64,000 nt of DNA from a virus. The stretch's first letter is position 1; each line of letters starts with the position of its first letter. A model generated the notes under the pieces. That model saw only the letters and a list, made by a program, of their open reading frames with translations, searched no databases and was not told where the DNA came from. Location: the IMG/VR virus record IMGVR_UViG_3300033075_000468. One strand, written 5' to 3'. Below are positions 41,367 to 63,679 of this stretch, in pieces. Position numbers and translations under genes: made by a program.

Positions 41367-41954
41367 CTACCAATCCTTCCTCGTTTTTAGTGCATGACAC
41401 CATACACACAATGGCATCAAATTTTCTATTTTATTATTAGATCTATTTGAGTCAATATGATCAACATCTAACATTTTTTTGGGTATTTCAATTCCAGATT
41501 TTTGAAGAGAACAATCAGGATTACAGCAAATCTCTCCAAATTTAGAAAAGGCTTTTTCTCTATAATTGGTGCCTCCTTTCCAATTTGGATGAAACTCTTC
41601 TACTTTAAACTTATTATTAAAGGAAGTTGCACAACTTCTATTACAAAATACTTTTCCTGTTTTACTTTTATCAATTTGTGACTTTCTTCTTTTTACTTTT
41701 TTTTGACAATATCCACACTCTAATGTTATAGATTCAGATTTTCCTACTGACTGACAATTTCTACTACAATAAACATTAGGGAAGATATGGGTTTTGCGCC
41801 TCCAAATTTCTGTATCACATACAGAACACTTAACTAGCGCCCACCATCTATGATTCTCAAATTTTTCATCAATAAAGTCAGGTAAGAGGGCTACGATCCC
41901 CCGACCTTCGATTCCCAAAACCGACGCTCTTCCTACTGAGCTATTACCTGTCAT
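41367..41954 (-). CDS. HNH endonuclease with a Zn finger. The annotated N-terminal 25 codons coincide with a tRNA-Pro gene.
   Basis: The C-terminal LMPLCVWCHALKTRKD fits the HNH motif. No alternative in-frame start exists downstream of the tRNA until late in the ORF. Confidence 0.55.
   Translation of the reverse strand: MTGNSSVGRASVLGIEGRGIVALLPDFIDEKFENHRWWALVKCSVCDTEIWRRKTHIFPNVYCSRNCQSVGKSESITLECGYCQKKVKRRKSQIDKSKTGKVFCNRSCATSFNNKFKVEEFHPNWKGGTNYREKAFSKFGEICCNPDCSLQKSGIEIPKKMLDVDHIDSNRSNNKIENLMPLCVWCHALKTRKDW
41878..41950 (-). tRNA. tRNA-Pro(TGG) with a non-canonical T-loop.
   Basis: Hand fold: caggtaa-ta-gctc-agtaggaa-gagc-g-tcggt-tttggga-atcga-aggtc-ggggg-atcgtag-ccctc-ttacctg-a, 73 nt. 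The acceptor is a perfect 7 bp. The T-loop is aTCGtAG, with positions 54 and 58 swapped relative to consensus. Confidence 0.5.
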
Positions 41955-43932: not shown

Positions 43933-44667
43933 ATGAAATTTTCAAGCGAAATCGACGTGCATCTCATAGACAGCATGGGTAATGATGATTCAGTCATACG
44001 TGCCATGCTCGTCTCTACAAACGGTGGTGCCCTGTCTCTAGAGGACGACTTCTTAGCGGAAGTGGAATCAGAGAAGTATCAGAATTCAAAGAACGGACGT
44101 ATCAATTTCTTGATGAAGAACCGTCATGGGTCCCCGTTTGAACACAACGCCTTCACCTTCTATGTGAAGGCTCCTATCTTCGTGTTTAGAGAGTGGCACA
44201 GACACCGCATTGGTTTTTCTTACAATGAAGAGTCAGGTCGTTATACGCAACTTAAGCCTGAATTCTATCTCCCCGCACCTGATCGTAACTTGGTGCAGGT
44301 TGGCAAGCCGGGACATTATGAATTTGTGCCCGGAACTTCTGAGCAATATGCAGACATGTTCTTAGGGCATACACAAATCTGTGCTGACTCATATGCTAAT
44401 TATGAGTATCTACTAAGTAAGGGTATTGCAAAGGAAGTTGCTCGTATGACTCTTCCTGTGAATATCTACAGCAGCATGTATGTTACGCTTAATACTAGAT
44501 CACTAATGGCATTTCTTTCTCTCCGCACGATTCATGAGGGCTCGATGTTCCCCTCATTTCCCATGAGAGAGATTGCAATGGCGGGAGAAAAGCTTGAAGC
44601 CGTGCTTGCCGATAAGTTCCCTATTACGCATGAAGCATTTAATAAGAACGGTAGAGTGTGCCCCTGA
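43933..44667 (+). CDS. thyX: Flavin-dependent thymidylate synthase ThyX.
   Basis: It carries the ThyX signature RHRIGFSYNEES (RHR-x7-S) and is 244 aa. Confidence 0.85.
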   Translation: MKFSSEIDVHLIDSMGNDDSVIRAMLVSTNGGALSLEDDFLAEVESEKYQNSKNGRINFLMKNRHGSPFEHNAFTFYVKAPIFVFREWHRHRIGFSYNEESGRYTQLKPEFYLPAPDRNLVQVGKPGHYEFVPGTSEQYADMFLGHTQICADSYANYEYLLSKGIAKEVARMTLPVNIYSSMYVTLNTRSLMAFLSLRTIHEGSMFPSFPMREIAMAGEKLEAVLADKFPITHEAFNKNGRVCP

Positions 44668-44918
44668 TGTTTAAAAAGAAGAAGCAATCGAATCAAGAAA
44701 TTTACGATGAGTCGATTCGCTGTATTGATCGTGCCTTGTCTAGATACAGAGATGATATTCTTTGGGTTGAAGATTCAACTCTTCTACTAGAGAAATACAT
44801 CGAAGAGTTAGCTAAGATCAAGGCTTACCTAGATTCTGAGATTAAGAAATCCAGAGAACAAATAAGAAAAAACCACAAGATAGCTTCAAACCTATCACAA
44901 CTAATAGAGGAAAACTAA
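44658..44918 (+). CDS. Hypothetical protein.
   Basis: Charged 86-aa ORF, start-coupled to thyX. Confidence 0.4.
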   Translation: MPLMFKKKKQSNQEIYDESIRCIDRALSRYRDDILWVEDSTLLLEKYIEELAKIKAYLDSEIKKSREQIRKNHKIASNLSQLIEEN

Positions 44919-44919
44919 A

Positions 44920-45207
44920 ATGGCGACCAAGCCTGTCAAGATCAAGAAAAACGCTCACCCGCTAGACAAGGGTAAGGCTATCTCTGCCAACGCTCTTGGT
45001 CTATTTCATCAGGCCCTTGCTGGTCTAGATGAGTCTAATGAGATTCTGAATCAGCATGCTGTACAAGCTGAGAATGCTGCTGATCAAATTCTAGCTGCGG
45101 CTAAGGCTCAAGCTGACGCTTTACGTGCAGAAGCATCTGAGGCGTACAAGGGTGTTGAAGCTAATACTGCTGTGAGAGATAAGATTTCATCTCTTCTTAC
45201 GGTGTGA
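44920..45207 (+). CDS. Hypothetical coiled-coil protein.
   Basis: Ala/Glu-rich 95-aa ORF. Confidence 0.4.
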   Translation: MATKPVKIKKNAHPLDKGKAISANALGLFHQALAGLDESNEILNQHAVQAENAADQILAAAKAQADALRAEASEAYKGVEANTAVRDKISSLLTV

Positions 45208-45208
45208 T

Positions 45209-46012
45209 ATGAGAGGGGAACATTTCAAAAGATTTGAAATCCCCAAAAGTCAATCATCAGAAGTAGCACTCCAAAACGAAATCCTGAGAGTATTGGTTGG
45301 TAGTTCTCTTACAGGAATTATCGGAGCTAATTCCTCTCAGGATTTCGACTACTGTGCAGTCTTTATTGAACCGATTGACTATGTTGTGGGACTACATCGA
45401 ATGGATCATTACACTTGGCGTTCGAAGCCCGAAGGCGTAAGATCTGAACCCGGTGATATTGACTTTTCTTCGTATTCACTACGTAAGTTCATGTCATTGG
45501 CTATGACTGGAAATCCTTCTATAGTGCAGATGCTATTTGCTCCCTCGACACATAGAGTTGCAAATAGAAGCGGAATGAAGCTATTAGAGTTGGCACCAGC
45601 AATTGCATCTAAGCAAGCTGGGCCGAGATTCCTAGGATATCTAGAGTCTCAAGAAAAGCGTCTAGTTGGTGAGTTAAAAGGACACATGCCTAAGCGTCCT
45701 GAGCTAGTAGACAAATATGGCTATGATACCAAGTACGCTGCTCATGCGCTAAGACTTGGCTTTCAGGGTATCGAATATATGGAAACCGGACAAATTCGGT
45801 TGCCCATGCTACCTGATCCCGGCGATTATCTGAGGGCAGTGCGAGCGGGCGAGTATTCGCTGGCAGATGTAGTGGCAGATATTGCAGTGATCAAGCAGAA
45901 TTTGAAACATGCAATTGATACCTCACCATTGCCACCCGAACCACATAAGCAAGCTATTGAAGAATGGCTAATAGATATACACTTAGATTGGTGGAATAAC
46001 AATGAGCTATAG
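45209..46012 (+). CDS. Nucleotidyltransferase of the Pol-beta superfamily.
   Basis: GSSLTGIIGANSSQDFDY fits the G[SG]-x9-13-D-x-D NTase motif. It is translationally coupled to the downstream RNA ligase. Confidence 0.6.
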   Translation: MRGEHFKRFEIPKSQSSEVALQNEILRVLVGSSLTGIIGANSSQDFDYCAVFIEPIDYVVGLHRMDHYTWRSKPEGVRSEPGDIDFSSYSLRKFMSLAMTGNPSIVQMLFAPSTHRVANRSGMKLLELAPAIASKQAGPRFLGYLESQEKRLVGELKGHMPKRPELVDKYGYDTKYAAHALRLGFQGIEYMETGQIRLPMLPDPGDYLRAVRAGEYSLADVVADIAVIKQNLKHAIDTSPLPPEPHKQAIEEWLIDIHLDWWNNNEL

Positions 46013-47264
46013 TGCTCTAGTTTGCAGAGTGCATACTAGACCTCATCCGAATGCAGACAGACTACAGCTTGGTACCGCAAATGGTTATCAAGTCATTGTC
46101 GGCCTTGATGTTCAAGATGGTGAGCTAGGTGTGTTCTTTGGTCCTGATGGACAGCTATCGGAAGAGATGTGTGCAGCAAATGACCTCATCGGATATACAG
46201 ATCCAGACACCCACGAACGACGTGGAGGATACTTTCCCAAAAACCGTCGTGTACGGTCCCAAAAGCTACGTGGCATTCCTTCCGATGGATTTTGGACAGG
46301 GCTGTCATCCTTTGTATTCACAGGAGTACGTGCGGAGGATTTCGTGGAAGGACAAACCTTCACCGAACTCAACGGAATCCCCATCTGCAACAAGTACATC
46401 ACCGAAGCAACTAGAAGAGCACAAGCTTCTGGACAAGGTAAGCAGCGCAGAGAAAACGCCGGATTCCCTAAGCACATAGATACCAAGCAGCTTAAGCACT
46501 ATATTGATTCTATCCCCGAAGATTCAATCATCTATATCACAGAGAAGTTGCATGGCACATCTGGAAGATATGGTTTGGTTTATGAGGAAACTGAAGTTCC
46601 TCTCAAGTGGTGGGAAAAGCTCGCTAGACGTAAGTCTAAGGCAGTCGGTGAATATAAGTACATGAATGGCACTCGTAATGTCGTCATGGCTGATCACACC
46701 CATTCTGGCTTCTATGGTAATGAGGAATTCCGTTTCAATGCAGTGAAAGATATTCAACTGCACAAGGGTGAAGTGCTATACTTTGAGCTAGTGGGCTATA
46801 CGACAACGGGTACCCCCATCATGAGCCCGCAAAACACTTCAAATCTGAAGAAGGAGCTTAAAGGATATGCCAACCCGATGGTTTACTCCTACGGAACAGA
46901 AAGTCCGAATTGCGATCTATATGTCTATCGTATTACTCGGGCTGATCCTGACGGTAATATAACTGAACTAAGCTGGCCGCAAGTCAAGCGTAGATGTGGT
47001 GAGCTAGGTATCAAGCATGTGCCAGATATTGCTAGAGCTTTATACACTGGTAAAAAAGATAAACTCCAAGATAAGGTGTCTGAATTTACAGAAGATCTTT
47101 CTTCAACCCTGGATTCTAGACACATTCGTGAGGGTGTGGTTATCAGAGTTGAAGCACCTGATGGCACCACCGACTGGTACAAAAACAAGTCATTTACCTT
47201 TGGTGTGCTTGAGGGTTATCTGAAGGATTCAGATGACTATGTGGATGCTGAAGAAATTGCATAG
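46002..47264 (+). CDS. ATP-dependent RNA ligase, Rnl2-like.
   Basis: Motif I is ITEKLHGTS (compare T4 Rnl2 EKIHGTN). It also has EGVVIRV (motif IV) and KNKSF (motif V). Confidence 0.7.
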   Translation: MSYSALVCRVHTRPHPNADRLQLGTANGYQVIVGLDVQDGELGVFFGPDGQLSEEMCAANDLIGYTDPDTHERRGGYFPKNRRVRSQKLRGIPSDGFWTGLSSFVFTGVRAEDFVEGQTFTELNGIPICNKYITEATRRAQASGQGKQRRENAGFPKHIDTKQLKHYIDSIPEDSIIYITEKLHGTSGRYGLVYEETEVPLKWWEKLARRKSKAVGEYKYMNGTRNVVMADHTHSGFYGNEEFRFNAVKDIQLHKGEVLYFELVGYTTTGTPIMSPQNTSNLKKELKGYANPMVYSYGTESPNCDLYVYRITRADPDGNITELSWPQVKRRCGELGIKHVPDIARALYTGKKDKLQDKVSEFTEDLSSTLDSRHIREGVVIRVEAPDGTTDWYKNKSFTFGVLEGYLKDSDDYVDAEEIA

Positions 47265-47292: not shown

Positions 47293-47805
47293 ATGAAGAT
47301 CTGCACTGTCAGCGAATGCCAAAACAAATATTATGCTAAAAATATGTGCAAAATACACTACAGTAGGTTTCTTAGACTAGGTCAAGTTGGGCTTCCTGCT
47401 CCAAAAATATGCGCTGTAGATGAATGCAATAATCGTCACTATGCTAACTCATATTGTGAAATGCATAATAGAAGATTTAAGCTTTATGGAGATCCATCAA
47501 TTCGTAAAATTAGACCAAGTGGGTCTGGAACTTATGATGAAAATGGATATATTGTAATAATGAAAAACTCTATTTCTAAGCGTGAACATCATTGGGTCAT
47601 GGAAGAATATTTAGGCAGAGAACTTTTTGTTCATGAAAATGTTCATCATAAAAATGGAATACGAGATGACAATAGATTAGAAAATCTAGAACTATGGTCA
47701 GTATCTCAACCACCTGGACAAAGAGTTAAAGACAAGATTCAATGGATGATTGAATTTCTATCTCAATATGGATATAAAGTTCTAGACCTAGAAGAGTCAA
47801 GCTGA
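47293..47805 (+). CDS. HNH endonuclease.
   Basis: N-terminal Cys pairs followed by [19 protein letters not shown] (HNH). Confidence 0.7.
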
Positions 47806-55959: not shown

Positions 55960-56382
55960 ATGAGAGATACAGAGCTTTTTAGAGACGTTGCACAATATAT
56001 TCGAGATTATCCTAATGAATATGCTCAGGAATATTGGGCATACGTTGATGAAGATTCATGCTGCACTTACCGCTGTATTCTTGGTACTGGAATTCATTTA
56101 AAGGGTCTTTCTAGAGAATGCTTCGAAAGAAGTGGAGACGGAGAAGTTACCTTCAAGACAGGATTCCTTCCTTTTGTTGATGGTGCTGCAATATTTGGTA
56201 TCTCGAAAGAAGAAGCGAACTTCTTGTTCCACGGGGCTTGGCGTCCCGCTCATGGTCTAGAGGTTGCAGAGGCTCTTGAAAAGCTTGCTGCTGGTGCCCA
56301 TATCAAAGATGTTACTGATATGAGAGGCGAATACTTCGGGGCTGCTGAGGATCTTCGCCCCGAAGAGTCTACGCACTTCTAA
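55960..56382 (+). CDS. Hypothetical protein.
   Basis: ORF of 140 aa with AAAGGAG 6 nt upstream of the ATG. Confidence 0.45.
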   Translation: MRDTELFRDVAQYIRDYPNEYAQEYWAYVDEDSCCTYRCILGTGIHLKGLSRECFERSGDGEVTFKTGFLPFVDGAAIFGISKEEANFLFHGAWRPAHGLEVAEALEKLAAGAHIKDVTDMRGEYFGAAEDLRPEESTHF

Positions 56383-56389
56383 AGGTGTT

Positions 56390-56462
56390 GTCTGCGTAGC
56401 CCAACGGCAGAGGCAACGGACTTAAAATCCGCAAAGTGTGGGTTCGAATCCCACCGTAGACA
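56390..56462 (+). tRNA. Class I tRNA with anticodon TAA (decodes Leu UUA/UUG) and a short variable arm.
   Basis: Hand fold: gtctgcg-ta-gccc-aacggcag-aggc-a-acgga-cttaaaa-tccgc-aaagt-gtggg-ttcgaat-cccac-cgtagac-a. Its anticodon stem is identical to that of tRNA-Arg(TCT) at 53417. Confidence 0.6.
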
Positions 56463-56466
56463 CAGT

Positions 56467-56775
56467 ATGGAATCAAAGTGCGTGCAATACGGATTACCTA
56501 CTGATTACTTCTTCCCGATACCTTTTTCGGGGCGACCAAAAAAGGGAGCAGAAAACAACACTCATGTAGTGCAGTCAGAAATTGCAAAGTTCTGCAACGG
56601 CACAAATGATGGAATAGTTTGTCAGTACAAACAACAATGTTTTGAAATGGGGTTGCACAACAATGAACCAGGCGTTTGGGGAGGAACAACCGAAGCGGAG
56701 AGGGACGTATTTAGATCGAAAATCCGCAAAGGTAATACCATTTCCTACCAACTACCAACCGAAGAAACGGGTTGA
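56467..56775 (+). CDS. WhiB-like (Wbl) protein, divergent.
   Basis: It has PTDYFFP, a Cys cluster C..C-x5-C, and the G[VI]WGG signature (PGVWGGTTEAER). Confidence 0.5.
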   Translation: MESKCVQYGLPTDYFFPIPFSGRPKKGAENNTHVVQSEIAKFCNGTNDGIVCQYKQQCFEMGLHNNEPGVWGGTTEAERDVFRSKIRKGNTISYQLPTEETG

Positions 56776-56858
56776 TTGGGTTGGTGGCTTTCTGATTGCA
56801 TTTGGTGTTATCGAAGTTACTGTGATATATCTTCTTATTAAAAGGTTTAGTTAGTCTC

Positions 56859-56929
56859 GGTCCATTAGTTTATTGGTAAAATCTCGGATTTTCACTCCGA
56901 AGAAGAGAGTTCGATTCTCTCATGGACTA
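56859..56929 (+). tRNA. tRNA-Glu(TTC).
   Basis: Hand fold: ggtccat-ta-gttt-attggta-aaat-c-tcgga-ttttcac-tccga-agaa-gagag-ttcgatt-ctctc-atggact-a. Confidence 0.85.
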
Positions 56930-56953
56930 CTCCTTAGAACAAAGGAAAACAAC

Positions 56954-57097
56954 ATGCAGGTTTCTGATGCCAGAATGAGAGAGATGGGCAAGGATCTTTA
57001 TGCGGTGTCGAGAGATACCACGGTTCCTGAACATCTTCGTCAAAGAGCAGCGGGTCATAGCCAGTTCATCTATGATAAGCTGCATGAGAATAAGTAA
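56954..57097 (+). CDS. Hypothetical small protein.
   Basis: ORF MQVSDARMREMGKDLYAVS..., 47 aa, with AAGGAAA 7 nt upstream of the ATG. The track ORF started inside tRNA-Glu. Confidence 0.3.
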   Translation: MQVSDARMREMGKDLYAVSRDTTVPEHLRQRAAGHSQFIYDKLHENK

Positions 57098-57104
57098 GTA
57101 ATCA

Positions 57105-57165
57105 GGAGAGTTGGCAGAGCGGACTATTGCACTGGTCTTGCTATGTAATAGACGCCAGTATAGTC
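57105..57165 (+). pseudogene. 5-prime fragment of a tRNA-Ser-like gene (acceptor 5-prime strand, D-arm, start of anticodon arm) that continues into a long hairpin.
   Basis: The sequence ggagagttggcagagcggactattgca matches 19 of the first 20 nt of the intact tRNA-Ser at 57532 (ggagagatggcagagcggccaaatgcg). No T-arm or 3-prime acceptor follows, and the nuclease gene starts at 57173. Confidence 0.4.
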
Positions 57166-57172
57166 TACTGGT

Positions 57173-57526
57173 ATGGACTCCCGTACAAAGCTGGGGAGCC
57201 TAGCAGAACTAAAGGTAGCTGCTGAACTATTATCACAAGACTACGAAGTATTCGTTGGTTGGGGTGGGAAAACCACATGTGATTTAGTCGCCATCAAAGA
57301 CTCAGAAATATTGAGAGTTCAGGTCAAAGGAACTGGAACACAAAGTAAGTCTGGAAAATGGATAACGCAACTCAAGTCAGTTAGGTCAAACAGAACAAAG
57401 AACGTTATATATCCTTTCGATTCAACATTGTGTGAAATCGTAGGAATCTATATAGCACCAGAAGATAGAGTAGTTATATTAAGCTCGGAAGAGCTACATG
57501 GTAAAAGTGAAATAAGAATAACATAA
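57173..57526 (+). CDS. PD-(D/E)xK nuclease, Hjc or restriction-endonuclease-like.
   Basis: [30 protein letters not shown] fits the Hjc-type E..D-x-[VI]..K nuclease core. The gene is sandwiched between the tRNA-Ser 5-prime fragment and the intact tRNA-Ser. Confidence 0.55.
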
Positions 57527-57531
57527 TACTT

Positions 57532-57616
57532 GGAGAGATGGCAGAGCGGCCAAATGCGAGCGCCTTGAAAGCGCTAGACTCGAAAGGGTCCGGGGGTTCA
57601 AATCCCTCTCTCTCCG
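57532..57616 (+). tRNA. tRNA-Ser(TGA), class II.
   Basis: Hand fold: ggagaga-tg-gca-gagcggccaaa-tgc-g-agcgc-cttgaaa-gcgct-agactcgaaagggtcc-ggggg-ttcaaat-ccctc-tctctcc-g, 85 nt. Confidence 0.85.
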
Positions 57617-57677
57617 CTGCACATAATAACCGGCCATGACTAGAAAGATGGGCTACCTAAAGGGGTATGTCTGCTAG

Positions 57678-58235
57678 TTGGGGCACGACGAAAGGAATAC
57701 TGTGCTTACACAAGAAATCATTGAACATATGAAGGAATTCTGCCTTAATGAAGATAAGATGCTTTGGCAGATGGGCGACTATCTTAATGAGCACAAGCTG
57801 ACAGACGAGGAAATTGAAAAGCTTGCTGATATCGTTCAGCGCAAAGCTTCTACACTTCGTCAGCGTGAAATGGTGGCAAGAGAATTCCAGCCAGAAGTTC
57901 GTAACTATAATCATGCATGGTCAGTTTATAAAGAACTAATGAGAGTTAAGGGGAAGGATTCCCGCCAAGAACTTCTAGATGGTAGAAATGAATGGACTGT
58001 TGACTCTATGAAGTCGGCAGTAAATGATTTCATTTCATCACAACCTAGTGATGGTTCGGGGCGTAATAGAATAGGTACACCGTTAGGTGGTGCAAGTGCA
58101 GGCATGAGAATTGGCAATATTCTCATTCGTGGCACTGAGCAGAATGGTGAATTAACAATCACCATTGATAAACCATTATCTGATATTCAAACCCTTTCAG
58201 GAAAGCAGTCCACCACTATCATCTGTCATGTCTGA
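57678..58235 (+). CDS. Hypothetical protein. The ORF-track start is a TTG; a GTG at 57702 with AAAGGA upstream is more likely.
   Basis: ORF of about 177-185 aa. Confidence 0.4.
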   Translation: MGHDERNTVLTQEIIEHMKEFCLNEDKMLWQMGDYLNEHKLTDEEIEKLADIVQRKASTLRQREMVAREFQPEVRNYNHAWSVYKELMRVKGKDSRQELLDGRNEWTVDSMKSAVNDFISSQPSDGSGRNRIGTPLGGASAGMRIGNILIRGTEQNGELTITIDKPLSDIQTLSGKQSTTIICHV

Positions 58236-58662
58236 TCATTTCAGTAGCCTAGTAAGAAGTAGAAGGCTTGAATTAGGGCTGACTCAGATAGAATTATCTA
58301 GACAGATGGGTGTGTCTAAAAGTGTTATTGCTAAAATGGAGCAAGGGTTAACTCGTTCTATTTTATCCACCAGAATTCATTTTTTTACTAATCCACCACT
58401 TCTATTTTCTAGAGAAATTGTTGAATCTTGGTGCAGCACTAATAGAGAGTGTTCAATAAAAGGTTGTTCAAAGCCAGCAGAAAAACGTACCGTATGTGGA
58501 ATGCATTACCGCAGATGGCAAAGAGATGGAGATTTGCGTGGGGCAGATAGAGAACGGCCCTCATATGTAGACTCAATCTGCTTGATTGTCGGATGCGGTC
58601 TTAAACCTCATGGGCAAGGGTTATGCGATAAGCACTACATGCAATTCTTAAGAAGTCGATAA
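58228..58662 (+). CDS. HTH (XRE-like) DNA-binding domain fused to a duplicated actinophage-type HNH-like Zn motif.
   Basis: It has LGLTQIELSRQMGVSKSVIAKME (HTH) and two copies of C-x4-GC...[GR]-x-[GV]-x-C-x2-HY-x-[RQ][WF]. The start is trimmed to the internal Met after the overlap. Confidence 0.5.
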   Translation: MSDHFSSLVRSRRLELGLTQIELSRQMGVSKSVIAKMEQGLTRSILSTRIHFFTNPPLLFSREIVESWCSTNRECSIKGCSKPAEKRTVCGMHYRRWQRDGDLRGADRERPSYVDSICLIVGCGLKPHGQGLCDKHYMQFLRSR

Positions 58663-58670
58663 GTAAGGTA

Positions 58671-58749
58671 GGAGGGTATGGCATTGGTTGCACTGGTGAA
58701 AACCAGCGGGTGCTTCGGTGCCCCCAGGGTTCGAATCCCTGGCTCTCCG
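58671..58749 (+). ncRNA. Anticodon-less tRNA-like RNA: tRNA acceptor and T-arm combined with two tetraloop hairpins.
   Basis: It reads ggagggt-at-g-gca-ttggt-tgc-a-[ctggt-GAAA-accag]-c-[gggtgc-TTCG-gtgccc]-c-caggg-ttcgaat-ccctg-gctctcc-g. The acceptor pairs over 7 positions (two G-U). The anticodon position is a GNRA-capped hairpin and the variable position a UUCG-capped hairpin. Confidence 0.45.
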
Positions 58750-58860
58750 CAAACGCATACATGACGGTAGTATGCGGGGAACAAACAAGTCCTAAAATCC
58801 GAAGGCGACACGCACGTGCAATCTGACTGTCGTAAACCAGTAACTTGTTTGTTCCCACCA

Positions 58861-58935
58861 GGCCCATTAGCTCAGTCTGGTTAGAGCACCGGCTTGTCAC
58901 GCCGAAGGTCGCCGGTTCAAATCCGGCATGGGTCG
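58861..58935 (+). tRNA. tRNA-Asp(GTC).
   Basis: Hand fold: ggcccat-ta-gctc-agtctggtta-gagc-a-ccggc-ttgtcac-gccga-aggtc-gccgg-ttcaaat-ccggc-atgggtc-g. Confidence 0.85.
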
Positions 58936-59094
58936 CAATGCACAAGTGGAGTGCTCATAGCGCATGTGATGATAAAGGAAGGCATTCCTCATCCCCGCAG
59001 ATTGGATATTGGTAGATATTTCCAGCAGTGCTACCACACTGAAAGCTGGACCCCACTTGTGCAGTTTCTTACACCTTCAAAAAGGAAAGAGATA

Positions 59095-59373
59095 ATGTCA
59101 AGTTGGTATGACGAAGCAGCCTGTAAGGGAATGGACCCTGAATTGTTCTTCCCGCAAACTAAAGGCATCGTCTCTCACTTCAAAGACCTTAGAAGGAGAT
59201 GTGAAAACTGCACAGTAAGAGATGAGTGTGAAGATCAAGTTATCTCAGAACTCGTCTTCTGTGTAAACATTAGAGAACATAAAGTCGGATTTCGGGCGGG
59301 CATGTCTGAAAAGCGGCTTAAGAATATAGCAATTTCTATCCGCAAGGACAGAGCAAAAGAAAGAGCAGCATGA
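59095..59373 (+). CDS. whiB: WhiB family protein.
   Basis: It has WYDEAACKGMDPELFFP...RCENCTVRDEC, matching the canonical WhiB N-terminus and C-x2-C-x5-C pattern. The start is trimmed, because the track ORF began inside tRNA-Asp. Confidence 0.75.
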   Translation: MSSWYDEAACKGMDPELFFPQTKGIVSHFKDLRRRCENCTVRDECEDQVISELVFCVNIREHKVGFRAGMSEKRLKNIAISIRKDRAKERAA

Positions 59374-59942
59374 AGAAAATCAAATATGTGTTTGTGGCTC
59401 TCGCCGCAGTAATTGGATTACTATTAGTTACTGAACAAGCTGACGCACATCACCCCGAGATTACTGCTGAAGCTGACTGTTCAAATGGGCCTACTTCTGT
59501 TGTTGTGGCTCATGCTGAAGCTTGGCAAACTGACAGTGCAGACCATAGATACAACGACAATATACAAATTGCGTATCGTATTGTTGGCGCTGCAACTGGT
59601 GCTACTGGCGCTAACTTTATCCCGGTGGGGAACGGCAAATTTCTCCCCGCCAACGGCTATAAGTTCTCGCTTGCATTCAGTGTGCCATCATCTGCCAAAC
59701 AAATTGTTGTCAGAGCTACAGCATTGTCAAGTTGGGGACCGAATCAAGAATTCCAGGGTGACTCTGACTTCAGAGAAGTTACAGTTGATCTTCCCCTGAA
59801 TTGTAATGACGTGGTGGAAACCACCACTACTGCCCCTACATCAAATACCGTGGAGAAACAAACAACTACCACTATTACGATTGCATCAACAACTATTCCT
59901 CCCGCAGACACAATTATCCGTCAACCTAGATTCACAGGGTGA
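59370..59942 (+). CDS. Secreted protein with a signal peptide and a Thr-rich C-terminus.
   Basis: It begins MKKIKYVFVALAAVIGLLLVTEQADA and ends in a TTTAPTSNTVEKQTTTTITIASTTIPP linker. Confidence 0.5.
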   Translation: MKKIKYVFVALAAVIGLLLVTEQADAHHPEITAEADCSNGPTSVVVAHAEAWQTDSADHRYNDNIQIAYRIVGAATGATGANFIPVGNGKFLPANGYKFSLAFSVPSSAKQIVVRATALSSWGPNQEFQGDSDFREVTVDLPLNCNDVVETTTTAPTSNTVEKQTTTTITIASTTIPPADTIIRQPRFTG

Positions 59943-59945
59943 TAA

Positions 59946-60932
59946 ATGTTTTTCTTCTTTATTCTGGCAGTCATAGCATTGCTCATTTCGTGGGTGATGC
60001 TGGGCTTCTCATTCCTCACGAAGAATGCTGCTGAGAAAAAGTCATCATTTGCTGGCTCTTTCGTGGTGTTCTTCATAGCACTGGTGCTTGGATTCATTTC
60101 ATGCATCAGAATTGTTCCTGCTAATAGCGTCGGCATTCCTGTGACGTTTGGCTCAATTGGAAAGTCAGTTGATTCAGGGTTCCACCTGACTTCTCCGTTT
60201 ACGAAGATTCATACCTTCTCAACTCGGCTTCAAGAGTCGTCAATGATTGGTGATCCCACTGAAGGTGATCGCAAGACTGATGATGCGGTTGATGTTCGTG
60301 GTTCAGATGAAGGTGTTGTGTATCTTGATGTTACCATTAGATATACGGTTTCTGAAGGAACGGCTTCAGAGCTTTTCAAGCGCACGGGTTCGATGGAAGG
60401 TATTCGGGAGAAGATCATTCGCCCCGATGCTCGTTCCATTCTGAGAGATGTGTCGAAGAACTTCATTTCATCTGATCTTGTTGCTGCTAAGCGTAGCGAT
60501 GTTGAAAAGCAGGCTTCTGATATTCTAAAGCAGAGAATGAAGGATGCCTACGGCATCAACATTGACGCTGTGCTTTTGCGTGGTGTTAGACCTTCTGATC
60601 AAGTGGAGAAGGCTATCCAGGCTAAGCTTACTAAGCAACAGGAAGTTGAGCAGGCACTTCTGCAACAGCAGAAAGAGTCAACTGAAGCTGATACCCGTAA
60701 GAAGGTTGCTGCTACAGATGCCGAAACTGCTAAGACTGCTGCTCAAGGTAAGGCTGATGCTGCCCGCATTGAAGCACAGGGTACTGCTGATGCAAACGCT
60801 AAACTTTCTCAGTCTCTTACTCCCGAGATTCTACAGAAGTTGAAGACTGAAGCGCTCAAGAATGGCACGGTGTATGTCGTGCCGGATGGAGCTAACTTCA
60901 TTCTTGGGGATCTGACTACCGCTAAGAAGTAG
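59946..60932 (+). CDS. SPFH/band-7 (stomatin/prohibitin-like) membrane protein.
   Basis: N-terminal transmembrane segment followed by an SPFH-like core (VPANSVGIPVTFGSIGK...YLDVTIRYTV) and a C-terminal Ala/Lys/Glu coiled coil. Confidence 0.7.
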   Translation: MFFFFILAVIALLISWVMLGFSFLTKNAAEKKSSFAGSFVVFFIALVLGFISCIRIVPANSVGIPVTFGSIGKSVDSGFHLTSPFTKIHTFSTRLQESSMIGDPTEGDRKTDDAVDVRGSDEGVVYLDVTIRYTVSEGTASELFKRTGSMEGIREKIIRPDARSILRDVSKNFISSDLVAAKRSDVEKQASDILKQRMKDAYGINIDAVLLRGVRPSDQVEKAIQAKLTKQQEVEQALLQQQKESTEADTRKKVAATDAETAKTAAQGKADAARIEAQGTADANAKLSQSLTPEILQKLKTEALKNGTVYVVPDGANFILGDLTTAKK

Positions 60933-60945
60933 TCTAAAAGCTAAT

Positions 60946-61281
60946 ATGAATAGTGAACAATTACATTGGGTAGCAGGCTTGCTTGAGGGCGAAGGCTGCT
61001 TTCAGATAACAAAAACATCTCCTAAAAAAGATGGCAGTGAAGTTTATAGCCACCTTTCAGTAACAGTAAATATGGGAGATGAAGATATTGTTAGGAGATT
61101 AAAGGAATATATAGGATATGGCAATATTCAAGGGCCATATCTTCCTAAAAAATCTCACTGGACACCAATGTGGCGGTTTGCTGTTCAGAAAGATAGTGAC
61201 GCTAGGAAACTAATGCAAGATGTTCTTCCGCTGATGGGGAAGAGACGTTCAGCCAAAATAAAAGAACTTCTTGATTCTTAG
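60946..61281 (+). CDS. Free-standing LAGLIDADG homing endonuclease (single-motif type).
   Basis: It carries WVAGLLEGEGCF, a LAGLIDADG block, and is 111 aa. It lies immediately upstream of tRNA-His. Confidence 0.7.
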   Translation: MNSEQLHWVAGLLEGEGCFQITKTSPKKDGSEVYSHLSVTVNMGDEDIVRRLKEYIGYGNIQGPYLPKKSHWTPMWRFAVQKDSDARKLMQDVLPLMGKRRSAKIKELLDS

Positions 61282-61298
61282 CGTATTTGTGGCCGTAG

Positions 61299-61369
61299 CT
61301 CAATGGTAGAGCAGTGGTTTGTGGTACCACGTATGACGGTTCGACTCCGTTCGGTCACCCTATGAAAAC
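61299..61369 (+). tRNA. tRNA-His(GTG).
   Basis: Hand fold: gtggccg-ta-gctc-aatggta-gagc-a-gtggt-ttgtggt-accac-gtat-gacgg-ttcgact-ccgtt-cggtcac-c. It has a C73 discriminator, and position -1 is T rather than G. Confidence 0.8.
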
Positions 61370-61371
61370 AA

Positions 61372-61511
61372 CAGATATCTTCGATAAGTGTACATGTCGT
61401 TGTCATAATGATGCACCAGGGATGCATAGACAACATATAGCTGCATGTTGTTGCCCACATAGATATCGTGCTAGGTGTCCGGAGGGTTGTCATGGCACGG
61501 GGAACGAATAA
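61372..61511 (+). CDS. Small Cys/His-rich protein.
   Basis: ORF MKTTDIFDKCTCRCHNDAPGMHRQH...; the track ORF started inside tRNA-His. Confidence 0.3.
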
Positions 61512-61656
61512 CAACGGTCCATTTGAAACATGCGGACATTGTAAAGGTTCAGGACTAGAAGATGGATTCTATGGTCCTAGAGATTGCAGTGTTTGTTATG
61601 GTAACTGCGTTGTTATGAAAAGAGATAACAAAGGTAGATTCACAAAATCTGAATAA
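61492..61656 (+). CDS. Small Zn-ribbon protein.
   Basis: ORF MARGTNNNGPFETCGHCKGSG...CSVCYGNC; it overlaps the upstream small ORF. Confidence 0.3.
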   Translation: MARGTNNNGPFETCGHCKGSGLEDGFYGPRDCSVCYGNCVVMKRDNKGRFTKSE

Positions 61657-61662
61657 AGATTT

Positions 61663-61734
61663 GGGCCTCAAGCTTTTACGGTGAAGCTCCAGACTTTTAA
61701 TCTGGCGAACTGAGTTCAAGTCTCAGGGGGCCTA
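61663..61734 (+). tRNA. tRNA-Lys(TTT).
   Basis: Hand fold: gggcctc-aa-gctt-ttacggtg-aagc-t-ccaga-cttttaa-tctgg-cgaa-ctgag-ttcaagt-ctcag-ggggcct-a. The acceptor includes two G-U pairs. Confidence 0.75.
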
Positions 61735-61777
61735 CTTTTTAATCCGCCGGTCGTGGGTTCGACCCCCACCGCCCCTA
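61735..61777 (+). pseudogene. tRNA 3-prime half (from the anticodon-stem 3-prime strand onward) fused directly after tRNA-Lys.
   Basis: It reads ctttttaa-tccgc-cggtc-gtggg-ttcgacc-cccac-cgcccct-a. The tccgc strand and gtggg..cccac T-arm resemble the 56390 tRNA, and the acceptor end cgcccct-a is identical to the fragment at 55905. Confidence 0.4.
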
Positions 61778-61818
61778 CAAAAATTCGGACTGTCACACCC
61801 CTTGGGTATAATGGAGCC

Positions 61819-62829
61819 ATGACAACACAAAATTACATAAACCACATTGCACTCGTACTAGACGAATCAGGCTCTATGTCTGGTCTGTCAGATAAAGTCG
61901 TTAAGGTCGCAGATAATCTCATTTCATATTTAGCACAAAGATCAAAGGAACTAGATCAGGAGACAAGAGTCTCGGTCTATACCTTCAACAACACAATCAA
62001 ATGCATCATCTTCGATAAAGATGTGCTACGACTTCCCTCACTAAGAGGTAAGTATAGACCGACAGGGCAGACAGCACTTATTGATGCTCTGTTGAAGTCA
62101 CAAGAGGATCTAGCAGATACATCAGAACTTTATGGTGATCATGCTTTCCTCACATATGTTATTACTGACGGTGGAGAGAACGCTTCTCGTAGATTCTCCC
62201 CCGCAGATGTTAGCCTAAAGATTAAGATGCTTCCTGAGCATTGGACAGTTGCTTGTCTGGTGCCTAATCAGCAGGGAGTGTTTGAGGCAAAGAAGTTCGG
62301 CTTCCCATCAAATAATATTGCGATTTGGGACGCAACAGTTCAAGGTCTAGATGTTGCTGAAACTGTTATTCGTACAGCAACCGAAAACTTTATGCAGGCC
62401 CGCTCAACTGGTACCTTCAGAGGCACTAAGGGCTTGTTCGACATGTCCTCCGCAACTCTTAACAAGGACACAGTTAAATCAGTTCTTAAGGAATTGAAGA
62501 ATGGTGAATACTTCATCTTCGAAGTTTTTGAAGGCTCGCCTGAGCAGATTTCAGATTTCGTTACGAGATGTGGACTGCAATACATTCCAGGCATGGCATA
62601 TTATCAACTGATGAAGTCTGAGACAATTCAGTCGTATAAGAAAGTTGCTATTGTCGAAAAATCAACAGGCAAGTGCTATTCAGGACAAAACGCTAGAGAC
62701 TTGTTGGGTCTGCCCAACTATGATATTCGTGTGCGTCCTCAAGATAACCCTGATTACTATGTCTTCATTCAGAGCACTTCTGTGAATAGAAAACTCAAGC
62801 CAAATACTAAGTTGCTGGTGCTCAAGTAA
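61819..62829 (+). CDS. von Willebrand factor A (vWA) domain protein.
   Basis: ALVLDESGSMSG (a DxSxS MIDAS motif) lies near the N-terminus. The start is trimmed to the ATG after the tRNA fragment. TATAAT at 61807-61812 sits immediately upstream. Confidence 0.65.
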   Translation: MTTQNYINHIALVLDESGSMSGLSDKVVKVADNLISYLAQRSKELDQETRVSVYTFNNTIKCIIFDKDVLRLPSLRGKYRPTGQTALIDALLKSQEDLADTSELYGDHAFLTYVITDGGENASRRFSPADVSLKIKMLPEHWTVACLVPNQQGVFEAKKFGFPSNNIAIWDATVQGLDVAETVIRTATENFMQARSTGTFRGTKGLFDMSSATLNKDTVKSVLKELKNGEYFIFEVFEGSPEQISDFVTRCGLQYIPGMAYYQLMKSETIQSYKKVAIVEKSTGKCYSGQNARDLLGLPNYDIRVRPQDNPDYYVFIQSTSVNRKLKPNTKLLVLK

Positions 62830-62851
62830 CGAGGCATGGTAAGCTTATAGA

Positions 62852-63406
62852 GTGAAAACAAAGCTGCTACTAGTAGTGGCCGTTACATTGCTAGTAGTAG
62901 CATCTCTGTATGTTCCTAATGCTAAAGCGGCTACTACATACGAAAAAGAATTCATAGCACTGATAAATGAGCTAAGAGTTAATAACAGCTTAAATCAGCT
63001 AACTGAAAACCCCGGACTTACTGATGGTGCAAGAGTGTGGGCACAAGCATTAGCTGACTCTGGAACCATTGGACATGATCCTAATCTCAAGAATGCTCTG
63101 GCAGAGTATGATGAGTTAGGAGAAAATGTGGGAATGGGAGGCTCAGTGCAAGCTATATTCAATGCGCTTGTAGCTTCTCCTGGGCATCATGAAAATATGG
63201 TGCGTCCAGAGTTTTCAGAAATTGGTGTAGGCGTTGTGGCATCTGGTGATACATTATTCACGGTTCATAGGTTCTTGGACCCCGTGACAAATGTGACTAC
63301 AACAATAGCTATCTCTATACCGACAGAGATTCTAGAGCCCACTACCACAACAGAAGTCATCGGCAAAATATGCTCTCCCATTTATCCAAAACAGATGACG
63401 GGCTGA
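62852..63406 (+). CDS. Secreted CAP/SCP/PR-1-like domain protein.
   Basis: It has a signal peptide (MKTKLLLVVAVTLLVVASLYVPNAKA) and the CAP-like motif GHHENMVRPEFSEIGVGVV. Confidence 0.55.
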   Translation: MKTKLLLVVAVTLLVVASLYVPNAKAATTYEKEFIALINELRVNNSLNQLTENPGLTDGARVWAQALADSGTIGHDPNLKNALAEYDELGENVGMGGSVQAIFNALVASPGHHENMVRPEFSEIGVGVVASGDTLFTVHRFLDPVTNVTTTIAISIPTEILEPTTTTEVIGKICSPIYPKQMTG

Positions 63407-63428
63407 GCGGCTATGCTAGGCTAAGGCC

Positions 63429-63599
63429 ATGAGACTTGACTCTGAAGATATTGCCGCTATTCATCACGCTATGGAGCACTTAAAAAAGTTTCAACATGGC
63501 ATATACTCATTTGGAGAAATTGAGTTCTTCGCTGATGGCGAGTGTCTTGGCACTTTGTATCAAGATACCGATTGGAATTTTGTTCCGACTACAAAGTAA
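63429..63599 (+). CDS. Hypothetical small protein of 56 aa.
   Basis: ORF MRLDSEDIAAIHHAMEHLKKF...; below the track threshold. Confidence 0.25.
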   Translation: MRLDSEDIAAIHHAMEHLKKFQHGIYSFGEIEFFADGECLGTLYQDTDWNFVPTTK

Positions 63600-63604
63600 G
63601 GTTT

Positions 63605-63677
63605 GGGAGTGTAACTCAATTGGCAGAGTAGCTGACTCTTAATCAGCAAGTTGAGGGTTCGATCCCCTCCACTCCTA
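63605..63677 (+). tRNA. tRNA-Lys(CTT).
   Basis: Hand fold: gggagtg-ta-actc-aattggca-gagt-a-gctga-ctcttaa-tcagc-aagtt-gaggg-ttcgatc-ccctc-cactcct-a. Confidence 0.85.
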
Positions 63678-63679
63678 CT

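What the first reader, a model, noticed from the sequence alone, without database searches (positions are those of the whole stretch)
45209..47264. Coupled Pol-beta nucleotidyltransferase and Rnl2-type RNA ligase directly upstream of the tRNA island: candidate RNA or tRNA repair module
The NTase (GS-x12-DFD) and the RNA ligase (KLHGTS motif I, EGVVIRV, KNKSF) overlap by 11 nt and are probably co-translated. An RNA end-healing and sealing pair next to about 30 phage tRNAs fits a counter-defence against host anticodon nucleases or tRNA-cleaving toxins, analogous to T4 Pnk/Rnl1 against PrrC. The NTase partner is unusual (it could be CCA or end-repair related) and may be a new combination.
Basis: partly seen in the sequence, partly recalled or inferred. 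Interest (0 to 1): 0.7.

Follow-up and report, generated by a model that had tools for sequence, protein, structure and literature searches.

The report
Phage RlaP plus RNA ligase repair pair
Two overlapping phage genes encode an RNA-end-extending enzyme (RlaP) and an RNA ligase, a pairing already described as an RNA/tRNA repair system that phages probably use against host tRNA-cutting defences, so this is a new example of a known system and not a new invention.

Summary
ORFs 45209-46012 (267 aa) and 46002-47264 (420 aa) exist, overlap by 11 nt and carry the quoted motifs.

ORF1 is a clear member of Pfam PF10127 RlaP, the "RNA ligase-associating Pol-beta" nucleotidyltransferases. It is homologous to T4 NrdC.11. 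The family was named for exactly this gene neighbourhood, and two bacterial members were recently shown to add 1-2 nucleotides to RNA 3'-OH ends.

ORF2 is an ATP-dependent RNA ligase (PF09414). Its architecture is an N-terminal OB fold plus a C-terminal adenylyltransferase with no C-terminal domain. Its best structural match is Naegleria RNA ligase, so it is Rnl5-like and not Rnl2 in the strict sense.

The order ThyX-x-x-RlaP-ligase-...-RF-1 domain is conserved in related uncultured phages. The 11-nt overlap is found only in the closest relative.

No polynucleotide kinase/phosphatase lies in the window, although relatives carry one near the ligase. The window holds 19-22 tRNA genes, not about 30, and the island starts 2.4 kb downstream.

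Verdict: the RNA-repair reading is supported by family membership and synteny. "New combination" is not supported. This is a new member of a known kind, of modest interest.

The parts
45209..46012 (+). RlaP-family Pol-beta nucleotidyltransferase gene (267 aa). N-terminal NTase domain with G31-S32, D45, D47, D83; C-terminal helical domain, residues about 137-265.
   Evidence: PF10127 at E 1.3e-20, 74.6 bits against a cutoff of 23. phrog_388 at 1e-53. Invariant residues in 50 homologues. AF2 model pLDDT 92. hhalign against T4 NrdC.11 gives 97.4% probability, E 1e-11. BFVD phage NTases match with TM up to 0.78.
46002..47264 (+). ATP-dependent RNA ligase gene (420 aa), Rnl5-like architecture.
   Evidence: PF09414 at E 6e-11. 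phrog_968 at 8e-52. TIGR02306 (DraRnl family) at E 4e-11 but below its cutoff. AF2 pLDDT 91. Foldseek best match is NgrRnl at E 5e-16, TM 0.65-0.69 of the target.
46002..46406 (+). N-terminal OB-fold domain of the ligase (residues about 1-135), with invariant K131 aligned to NgrRnl K121.
   Evidence: PF21189 is weak in this protein (E 0.002-0.02) but found in 41 of 55 family members. The profile alignment to NgrRnl covers residues 15-176 of that chain. The model shows a beta-rich N-terminal domain.
46530..47231 (+). Adenylyltransferase domain of the ligase. Motif I K182-LHGTS, motif III region E257, motif IV E377-GVVIR, motif V K394-x-K396. Only about 24 residues follow motif V.
   Evidence: PF09414 match covers residues 177-394. 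Invariant columns. Secondary structure of the model.
46002..46012 (+). 11-nt overlap of the RlaP stop region with the ligase start (ATGAGCTATAG). A GGTGG lies 9-13 nt upstream of the ATG.
   Evidence: The same overlap occurs in L095, the 89%-identical relative. It is replaced by a 53-131 aa ORF in L001-L004 and L096.
43933..45207 (+). Upstream genes of the same tightly packed run: ThyX (43933-44667) and two small conserved ORFs of unknown function (44658-44918, 44920-45207).
   Evidence: PF02511 at E 1.6e-41. Same gene order in L001-L004, L095 and L096. No terminator-like site on the + strand.
49644..63678 (+). Downstream tRNA island (context, and the candidate substrate pool): 19 tRNA genes by ARAGORN, 16 of them also found by Rfam.
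50055..50405 (+). RF-1-domain (GGQ) peptidyl-tRNA hydrolase-like gene, 116 aa. Context: a possible ribosome-rescue partner, conserved in synteny.
   Evidence: PF00472 at E 9e-20 and phrog_3122 at 2e-25. Present at the same relative position in L001, L002 and L095.

Best explanation
The two genes form an RlaP-plus-RNA-ligase RNA repair cassette of an uncultured phage. The host is probably an actinobacterium, given two WhiB genes and an Rv2632c-like gene nearby. RlaP would add one or two untemplated ribonucleotides to the 3'-OH of a broken RNA, most plausibly the 5' half of a tRNA from which a host nuclease has removed nucleotides. The ligase would then seal the 3'-OH to a 5'-phosphate end. It would self-adenylylate on K182 with help from its N-terminal OB domain, transfer AMP to the 5'-phosphate, and form the phosphodiester. 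Together with the phage's own 19-22 tRNA genes and an RF-1-domain hydrolase, the cassette would keep translation running when the host attacks tRNAs. Shown here: the genes, their family membership, intact catalytic residues, confident folds, and conserved gene order. Inferred from characterised relatives: the enzymatic activities. Inferred from context only: tRNA as the substrate and the counter-defence role. If the attacking nuclease leaves 2',3'-cyclic phosphate and 5'-OH ends, a kinase/phosphatase is also needed. None is in this window, so it must be encoded elsewhere in the genome or the target breaks already carry 3'-OH and 5'-phosphate.
For: ORF1 is RlaP: (PF10127, E 1.3e-20), (invariant GS and three Asp; T4 NrdC.11, 97.4% probability). 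ORF2 is an RNA ligase with Rnl5-like architecture. The RlaP-then-ligase order is conserved in relatives at 63-89% identity. Every RlaP and Pnk hit near homologous ligases lies on the ligase's strand. Pnkp sits next to or near homologous ligases in Bacillus, Microbacterium and Gordonia phages and in L003/L004. 24 of 80 IMG/VR loci with this ligase have at least 3 tRNA genes within 10 kb, and 11 of them have at least 10. Literature: RlaP adds 1-2 NMP to RNA 3'-OH, prefers the 5' half of a cleaved-tRNA mimic, and partly restores aminoacylation of a tRNA lacking one anticodon-loop nucleotide (PMC12776372). RlaP distribution mirrors RNA ligases in jumbo phages (PMC7824862).
Against: No activity was measured for these proteins. 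The characterised RlaPs are bacterial and lie in RtcB operons, in a different cluster from the phage members. Characterised Rnl5 ligases seal nicks in duplexes and are feeble on single strands (PMC4408790), whereas anticodon-loop breaks are the speciality of Rnl1/Rnl4. The ligase is only about 16% identical to NgrRnl and falls below the TIGR02306 cutoff, so its substrate preference cannot be transferred safely. No Pnkp, phosphoesterase or other healing enzyme was found in the 64-kb window. Among more distant ligase loci, RlaP lies within 10 kb in only 13 of 80, so the tight pairing is lineage-specific. The neighbours upstream are nucleotide-metabolism genes (ThyX here, RNR in relatives), not RNA-repair genes.
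Confidence: 0.68

Rival explanations
1. The ligase is a nick-sealing enzyme for RNA-containing duplexes in phage nucleic-acid metabolism. Examples would be RNA:DNA hybrids or ribonucleotide patches made during replication or repair. RlaP would trim or fill RNA 3' ends there. On this reading the tRNA island is unrelated.
For: The best structural relative, NgrRnl, and DraRnl seal 3'-OH/5'-phosphate nicks in duplexes whose 3'-OH strand is RNA, and DraRnl protects against ionising radiation. The genes sit in a run headed by ThyX, with class II RNR nearby in relatives. In Bacillus phage vB_BcoS-136 a DNA ligase lies about 2 kb from the homologous RNA ligase.
Against: RlaP does not use DNA 3' ends and prefers cleaved-tRNA mimics. 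Homologous ligases recur inside or beside tRNA islands and next to Pnkp, which is the classic RNA-repair partner.
Confidence: 0.12
2. RlaP works mainly on tRNA 3' ends, completing or repairing the CCA tail of the phage's own tRNAs. The ligase acts independently of it.
For: None of the 22 tRNA genes encodes CCA. 21 of 22 have only a C after the discriminator, so two nucleotides must be added, and RlaP adds one or two. No canonical CCA-adding enzyme was found in the window. Some mycobacteriophage homologues are annotated 'tRNA nucleotidyltransferase', which is annotation only. The ligase's N-terminal OB gives weak Foldseek matches to Trbp/EMAPII-type tRNA-binding OB domains, a class that binds the tRNA 3' CA (PMC11286949).
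Against: The characterised RlaPs show little NTP specificity, and in a cleaved-tRNA mimic they prefer the break-site 3' end over the acceptor 3' end. The host CCA-adding enzyme can do the job. The C74-only pattern is equally common in tRNA islands with no RlaP within 10 kb.
Confidence: 0.07
3. The two genes are adjacent early genes with separate roles, and their overlap is ordinary phage gene packing and not functional coupling.
For: All five genes from ThyX to the ligase abut or overlap. The overlap is replaced by an intervening ORF in relatives at 63-74% identity. RlaP is absent within 10 kb of the ligase in 67 of 80 more distant loci.
Against: The order RlaP-then-ligase persists down to 63% identity. 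The RlaP family as a whole is defined by linkage to RNA ligases.
Confidence: 0.1

Closest known systems
RlaP-RNA ligase repair systems (Burroughs and Aravind 2016; Iyer et al. 2021, PMC7824862; Carruthers, Fatma and Huang 2025 preprint, PMC12776372)
   Same: A PF10127 NTase is encoded beside a 5'-phosphate-type ATP-dependent RNA ligase in a phage that also carries many tRNA genes. The GS motif and three catalytic Asp are conserved. The predicted role is to restore nucleotides lost from cleaved RNA before ligation.
   Different: The biochemically characterised RlaPs are Pseudomonas proteins in RtcB-RlaP-RtcA operons. Here the partner is an Rnl5-like ligase, which is chemically compatible with RlaP's 3'-OH product. 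The genes overlap, and no healing enzyme lies nearby.
Rnl5 family RNA ligases (Naegleria gruberi NgrRnl, Deinococcus radiodurans DraRnl)
   Same: N-terminal OB plus C-terminal adenylyltransferase with no C-terminal appendage. NgrRnl is the best Foldseek match over its full length (E 5e-16). Counterparts of K170, K121, E312 and K326 are conserved.
   Different: About 16% identity. About 80 residues longer, with insertions in the NTase domain. Motif I reads KxHG where Rnl5 has KxDG. Below the TIGR02306 cutoff (42 against 151 bits). Substrate preference is unknown.
T4 Pnkp/Rnl1 tRNA repair against PrrC, with T4 NrdC.11 and Rnl2
   Same: The logic is a phage-encoded repair of host-cleaved tRNA. 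T4 also encodes an RlaP homologue, NrdC.11 (97.4% hhalign probability).
   Different: The ligase is not Rnl1 (PF09511 absent). No Pnkp is in the window. In T4 the genes are scattered, whereas here RlaP and the ligase are contiguous.
Pnkp-RNA ligase cassettes of actinobacteriophages and Bacillus phages (e.g. Microbacterium phage Lyell gp80-81, Gordonia phage Rabbitrun gp82-84 plus NTase gp90, Bacillus phage vB_BcoS-136)
   Same: Homologous ligase at 30-38% identity. In Rabbitrun an RlaP lies about 3 kb away on the same strand.
   Different: In those phages the immediate partner is polynucleotide kinase. Here the immediate partner is RlaP and the kinase is missing from the window.

Membership tests
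RlaP (Pfam PF10127) | Profile match above the curated gathering score | tested here: met
   74.6 bits against a cutoff of 23, E 1.3e-20. All 120 listed homologues carry PF10127.
RlaP (Pfam PF10127) | Pol-beta catalytic signature: G-S motif and three conserved acidic residues | tested here: met
   G31, S32, D45, D47 and D83 are invariant in 50 sequences. The GS motif and D45/D47 also align with T4 NrdC.11; the third-Asp region aligns there too, but with D85, not D83, opposite the T4 Asp.
RlaP (Pfam PF10127) | N-terminal NTase domain plus C-terminal helical domain closed by a terminal helix, as in the PfRlaP crystal structure | tested here: inconclusive
   The AF2 model (pLDDT 92) has an alpha/beta N-domain and helices 137-265. 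It matches phage NTase models at TM 0.75-0.78. The PfRlaP structure is not in the PDB copy, so no direct superposition was possible.
RlaP (Pfam PF10127) | Gene neighbourhood with an RNA ligase | tested here: met
   Overlaps the ligase gene. The order is conserved in L001-L004, L013, L095 and L096.
RlaP (Pfam PF10127) | Adds one or two NMP to RNA 3'-OH, Mn-dependent | not testable with these tools
   Known only for PfRlaP and PaRlaP (PMC12776372).
Rnl5 RNA ligases (NgrRnl/DraRnl) | N-terminal OB domain fused to a C-terminal NTase domain, with no C-terminal appendage | tested here: met
   Model secondary structure. Full-length Foldseek match to NgrRnl. PF21189 in 41 of 55 members. Only about 24 residues follow motif V.
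Rnl5 RNA ligases (NgrRnl/DraRnl) | Catalytic residues: motif I Lys and Asp, motif III Glu, motif IV Glu, motif V Lys, OB-domain Lys | tested here: inconclusive
   K182, E257, E377, K394/K396 and K131 are invariant. The motif I Asp (NgrRnl D172) is His184 here. The D172A mutant of NgrRnl is reported to remain active. A counterpart of R149 could not be assigned.
Rnl5 RNA ligases (NgrRnl/DraRnl) | Match to the NCBIfam equivalog TIGR02306 above its cutoff | tested here: not met
   42.4 bits against a cutoff of 151.15, with only residues 11-196 aligned. The PDB profile search gives NgrRnl at E 0.016. The protein is best called Rnl5-like, or a sister clade.
Rnl5 RNA ligases (NgrRnl/DraRnl) | Seals 3'-OH/5'-phosphate nicks in duplexes whose 3'-OH strand is RNA | not testable with these tools
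   Biochemistry only (PMC4408790).
Rnl2 RNA ligases (T4 Rnl2, REL1), strict sense | NTase domain followed by the signature all-helical C-terminal domain | tested here: not met
   No C-terminal domain. T4 Rnl2 and REL1 match only through the NTase domain, at E about 1e-6 and TMq 0.31-0.37. PF09414, which also covers Rnl2, is matched.
Rnl1 (T4 RNA ligase 1) | PF09511 RNA_lig_T4_1 profile | tested here: not met
   No hit for the window protein. 1 of 55 family members hits at E 0.007.
ATP-dependent DNA ligases | DNA-ligase adenylation profile with a C-terminal OB domain | tested here: not met
   No DNA-ligase Pfam or NCBIfam hit. DNA ligases appear only at Foldseek E >= 1e-3. The OB domain is N-terminal.
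CBASS CD-NTase, antibiotic NTases, other defence NTases | Profile match to the family, with an effector gene nearby | tested here: not met
   No PADLOC hit and no Pfam hit other than RlaP. ANT and HalB structures match only weakly, at E 1e-3 to 1e-2 and TM 0.3-0.4.
Complete T4-type heal-and-seal pathway | A polynucleotide kinase/phosphatase encoded with the ligase | tested here: not met
   No Pnkp in the 64-kb window by tblastn, by a 4-sequence HMM, or by Pfam scans of 36 neighbouring ORFs besides the pair itself. It may lie outside the window, because the genome is larger (relatives' contigs reach 135 kb).

The most novel reading that the evidence does not exclude
RlaP in this phage lineage may be a tRNA 3'-end completing or repairing enzyme and not, or not only, a break-site filler. 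Every phage tRNA gene here stops at C74, so exactly two nucleotides are missing, and that is the number RlaP adds. The Rnl5-like ligase carries an N-terminal OB that resembles the Trbp/EMAPII class, which grips the tRNA 3' CA. The pair would then be a dedicated maturation and quality-control unit for phage-encoded tRNAs that works without a polynucleotide kinase.
Probability: 0.07. Interest if true: 0.6.

Novelty: new member of a known kind. Interest (0 to 1): 0.27.

Why it matters
The finding adds a clean, compact example of the RlaP-ligase pairing: two overlapping genes in an uncultured, probably actinobacterial, phage, beside a large tRNA island. The ligase partner uses 5'-phosphate/3'-OH chemistry. 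This avoids the chemical mismatch between RlaP's 3'-OH product and RtcB that the authors of the only biochemical RlaP study pointed out. The in vivo roles of both Rnl5-type ligases and RlaP are still open, so phage cassettes of this type would be good material for reconstituting "fill then seal" repair. The finding does not reveal a new kind of system.

Tried and rejected
- A DNA-level search of the region against 50,697 phage records found nothing. Only protein-level relatives at 45% identity or less exist among cultured phages.
- Single-sequence searches of the PDB found nothing for either protein. A profile search found only a marginal NgrRnl hit for the ligase and nothing meaningful for RlaP.
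- The AFDB50 fold library was unavailable.
- Burroughs and Aravind 2016, the paper that named RlaP, is not held. Its content is cited second-hand through PMC7824862, PMC6514570 and PMC12776372.
- I tried to read the contig beyond the window ends by looking up terminal proteins. This returned only other short contigs or more structural genes, and no repair genes.
- Sigma-70-type promoter matches were not above the shuffled expectation (20 found, 14.4 +/- 3.7 expected). No + strand terminator-like site lies between ThyX and the tRNA island. Co-transcription is therefore plausible but unproven.
- Readings considered and rejected: DNA ligase, CD-NTase/CBASS, aminoglycoside NTase, Hailong HalB-like defence NTase, and Rnl1.
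- A permissive Pfam scan of the isolated OB domain gave only PF21189 and no tRNA_bind family.
Full report
**Observation.**
The two ORFs are real and lie at the stated coordinates: 45209-46012 (+, 267 aa) and 46002-47264 (+, 420 aa), sharing 11 nt. The ligase ATG sits inside the last codons of the upstream gene (…TGGTGGAATAACAATGAGCTATAG), with a GGTGG 9-13 nt upstream.

The quoted motifs are all present. In ORF1 these are G31-S32, 12 residues, then D45-F-D47. In ORF2 they are K182-LHGTS, E377-GVVIRV and K394-NKSF. They fall on columns that are invariant in alignments of 50 and 55 homologues.

Two details are overstated.
- The window has 22 tRNA genes by ARAGORN and 19 by Rfam, not about 30.
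- The first downstream tRNA starts 2.4 kb after the ligase, beyond an HNH endonuclease gene and seven small ORFs.

All five genes from ThyX (43933) to the ligase abut or overlap. The overlap is therefore ordinary phage packing as much as a sign of coupling.

**Identity of ORF1.**
Pfam places ORF1 in PF10127 RlaP, "RNA repair pathway DNA polymerase beta family", at E 1.3e-20 (74.6 bits against a cutoff of 23). PHROGs places it in phrog_388 (nucleotidyltransferase) at 1e-53.

About 1,400 homologues were found, and all those listed carry PF10127. G31, S32, D45, D47 and D83 are invariant, which matches the GS motif and three catalytic aspartates described for the family (PMC12776372).

The AlphaFold model is confident (pLDDT 92). 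It shows an alpha/beta NTase domain followed by a helical domain.

No RlaP structure is in the PDB copy. The nearest solved structures are only weak neighbours (3c18, Hailong HalB and aminoglycoside NTases at E 1e-4 to 1e-2, TM 0.3-0.4). Against predicted viral structures, the model matches many phage "nucleotidyltransferases" at TM up to 0.78.

A profile-profile comparison with T4 NrdC.11 gives 97.4% probability and E 1e-11 over 233 columns. The 2025 preprint names NrdC.11 as an RlaP. There is no PADLOC hit.

**Identity of ORF2.**
Pfam gives PF09414 RNA_ligase (E 6e-11, residues 177-394) and a weak N-terminal PF21189 OB-fold hit. PHROGs gives phrog_968 RNA ligase at 8e-52. PF21189 is found in 41 of 55 family members.

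NCBIfam matches TIGR02306, the Deinococcus DRB0094 (DraRnl) ligase model, at E 4e-11. The match is far below the equivalog cutoff and covers only residues 11-196.

The model (pLDDT 91) has a beta-rich N-terminal domain, a central and C-terminal NTase domain, and only about 24 residues after motif V.

The thirteen best Foldseek hits in the PDB are all Naegleria gruberi RNA ligase, the Rnl5 exemplar (E 5e-16 to 2e-14, TM 0.63-0.69 of the target, full length). REL1, T4 Rnl2 and Rnl3-type ligases follow at E 1e-6 to 1e-4 through the NTase domain only. DNA ligases appear at E >= 1e-3.

A profile alignment equates K182 with the NgrRnl nucleophile K170, K131 with the OB-domain K121, and E377 with E312. 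The motif I aspartate of Rnl5 is a histidine here.

By the Shuman classification, Rnl5 is defined by an N-terminal OB module and the lack of a C-terminal appendage (PMC4408790, PMC7261155). On that basis the enzyme is Rnl5-like and not Rnl2. In the looser usage of the Aravind group, this clade is counted under "Rnl2 family". Xanthomonas phage XacN1, cited there for its Rnl2 paralogues, encodes a 33%-identical homologue. I file it as a divergent sister of Rnl5 and not as a strict member, because the equivalog threshold is not met.

**Context and relatives.**
No cultured phage matches at the DNA level. Protein identity to cultured phages is at most 43% for the ligase (Vibrio, Bacillus, Alishewanella, Microbacterium, Gordonia and mycobacteriophages) and about 40% for RlaP (mycobacteriophages and Gordonia phages).

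Two WhiB genes and an Rv2632c-like gene in the tRNA island point to an actinobacterial host. GC content is 43%.

In metagenomic relatives the block ThyX, small ORFs, RlaP, ligase, small ORFs, RF-1-domain gene is conserved at 89%, 74%, 67% and 63% ligase identity (L095, L001/L002, L096, L003/L004). The 11-nt overlap is kept only in the 89% relative. In the others a 53-131 aa ORF sits between the two genes.

L003/L004 carry a T4-type kinase-phosphatase (AAA_33 + HAD_PNKP) 2.3 kb downstream of the ligase. In Bacillus phage vB_BcoS-136, Microbacterium phage Lyell and Gordonia phage Rabbitrun, a polynucleotide kinase is adjacent or nearly adjacent to the homologous ligase. Rabbitrun also has an RlaP 3 kb further on.

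Counts for the 80 IMG/VR loci carrying this ligase (34-63% identity; several are duplicates of one another), all:

| Feature within 10 kb of the ligase | Loci (of 80) |
|---|---|
| RlaP | 13 |
| Pnkp-like gene | 27 |
| At least 3 tRNA genes | 24 |
| At least 10 tRNA genes | 11 |

Every RlaP and Pnkp-like hit is on the ligase's strand.

The window itself holds no Pnkp. This was checked by tblastn, by HMM, and by Pfam scans of 36 neighbouring ORFs besides the pair itself. No other phosphoesterase, RtcB or CCA-adding enzyme was found among the ORFs scanned. The genome is larger than the window, so absence from the genome is not shown.

**What is known.**
RlaP stands for "RNA ligase-associating Pol-beta". 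It was named by Burroughs and Aravind (2016) for its operonic linkage to several kinds of RNA ligase, and was predicted to restore nucleotides lost from cleaved RNAs before ligation. Iyer et al. (2021) call it the most prevalent such NTase in jumbo phages, with a distribution that mirrors RNA ligases (PMC7824862).

Carruthers, Fatma and Huang (bioRxiv, December 2025) reported the following for two Pseudomonas RlaPs (PMC12776372):
- They add one or two NMPs to RNA 3'-OH ends, and not to DNA or to 3'-phosphate ends.
- They prefer Mn2+.
- They favour the 5' half of a cleaved-tRNA mimic.
- They partly rescue aminoacylation of a tRNA that lacks an anticodon-loop nucleotide.

The authors propose RlaP as an antidote to nucleases such as RloC that excise a nucleotide. 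They also note that RlaP's 3'-OH product suits 5'-phosphate ligases but not RtcB. The pairing seen in this window is the chemically compatible one.

**Mechanism proposed.**
- Step 1 (inferred from family): RlaP extends the 3'-OH of a damaged RNA by one or two nucleotides.
- Step 2 (inferred from family and conserved residues): the ligase adenylylates K182 with help from the OB domain, activates the 5'-phosphate end and seals it.
- Step 3 (inferred from context only): the substrates are tRNAs, host or phage-encoded, cut by host defence or toxin nucleases.

The nearby tRNA island and the RF-1-domain hydrolase serve the same end, which is to keep translation going.

The main weaknesses are these. 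Characterised Rnl5 enzymes prefer duplex nicks and are feeble on single strands. No healing enzyme is in the window. Nothing here is biochemical.

I put this explanation at about 0.68. The rivals are duplex or hybrid nick repair (0.12), no functional coupling (0.10) and a tRNA 3'-end role for RlaP (0.07).

**Novelty and verdict.**
The families, their pairing, their presence in phages with many tRNAs and the proposed role are all published. What is specific here is a direct, overlapping RlaP-then-Rnl5-like-ligase arrangement in an uncultured phage lineage, with no kinase in view. That makes it a new member of a known kind. The claim of a possibly new combination is not, and "Rnl2-type" should read "Rnl5-like". 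Interest is modest, at about 0.27.

Noticed in passing
window, all 22 tRNA genes (1349-63678); also L031, L038, L042, L053, L058: No tRNA gene encodes CCA. 21 of 22 have a C directly after the discriminator, followed by a non-C. The same 'C74 only' pattern dominates tRNA islands beside homologous ligases elsewhere (for example 29/35, 20/21, 24/25), whereas more distant ligase loci have fully encoded CCA.
   Followed up: partly
window 50055-50405 (+): A 116-aa RF-1-domain (GGQ) protein, ArfB/RFH-like, sits inside the tRNA island. It is conserved at the same relative position in L001, L002 and L095. It is a possible ribosome-rescue partner of the repair genes.
   Followed up: partly
window 47293-47805 (+); also 41367-41954 (-), 60946-61281 (+), 57173-57526 (+): An HNH endonuclease gene lies immediately after the ligase. 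It is absent at that position in L095 and L001, so it looks like a recent homing-endonuclease insertion. Another HNH gene, a LAGLIDADG gene and a PD-(D/E)XK endonuclease gene are scattered through the tRNA region.
   Followed up: partly
L001/L002 12875-15180, L096 15239-17493, L008 5476-8029, L009 5989-8448: A phosphoribosyltransferase-like gene plus a NAMPT gene (an NAD salvage pair) lies a few kb downstream of the homologous ligase in several unrelated phages. It is missing from the corresponding part of this window.
   Followed up: no
window 46002-46406 (+), ligase N-terminal OB domain: The full-length ligase model gives weak Foldseek hits to PheRS beta subunits, YtpR and EMAP II (E 3e-5 to 7e-3), proteins that carry OB folds. 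I attribute these hits to the ligase's N-terminal OB domain and suggest it is of the Trbp/EMAPII tRNA-binding type, but neither the aligned region nor the OB type was checked. A 2024 structure shows that this class grips the tRNA 3' CA. Pfam gives only PF21189.
   Followed up: partly
window 56467-56775, 58894-59373, 53750-54160 (+): Two WhiB-like genes and an Rv2632c-like gene are interleaved with the tRNAs, in a 43% GC sequence. This suggests a phage of a low-GC actinobacterium.
   Followed up: no
window 17219-27358 (-): A single ORF of 3,379 aa lies in the structural module on the minus strand, flanked by ORFs of 1,297 and 1,328 aa. It was not examined.
   Followed up: no
window 1349-1427 (-), 51557-51630 (+), 51698-51771 (+): Three ARAGORN tRNA calls (Ile-gat, Met-cat, Asn-gtt) do not reach the Rfam tRNA gathering score. 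The first also has a poorly paired acceptor stem.
   Followed up: no
window 59946-63406 (+): Genes for an SPFH/Band-7 protein, a von Willebrand factor A protein and a CAP-domain protein sit at the far end of the tRNA island.
   Followed up: no
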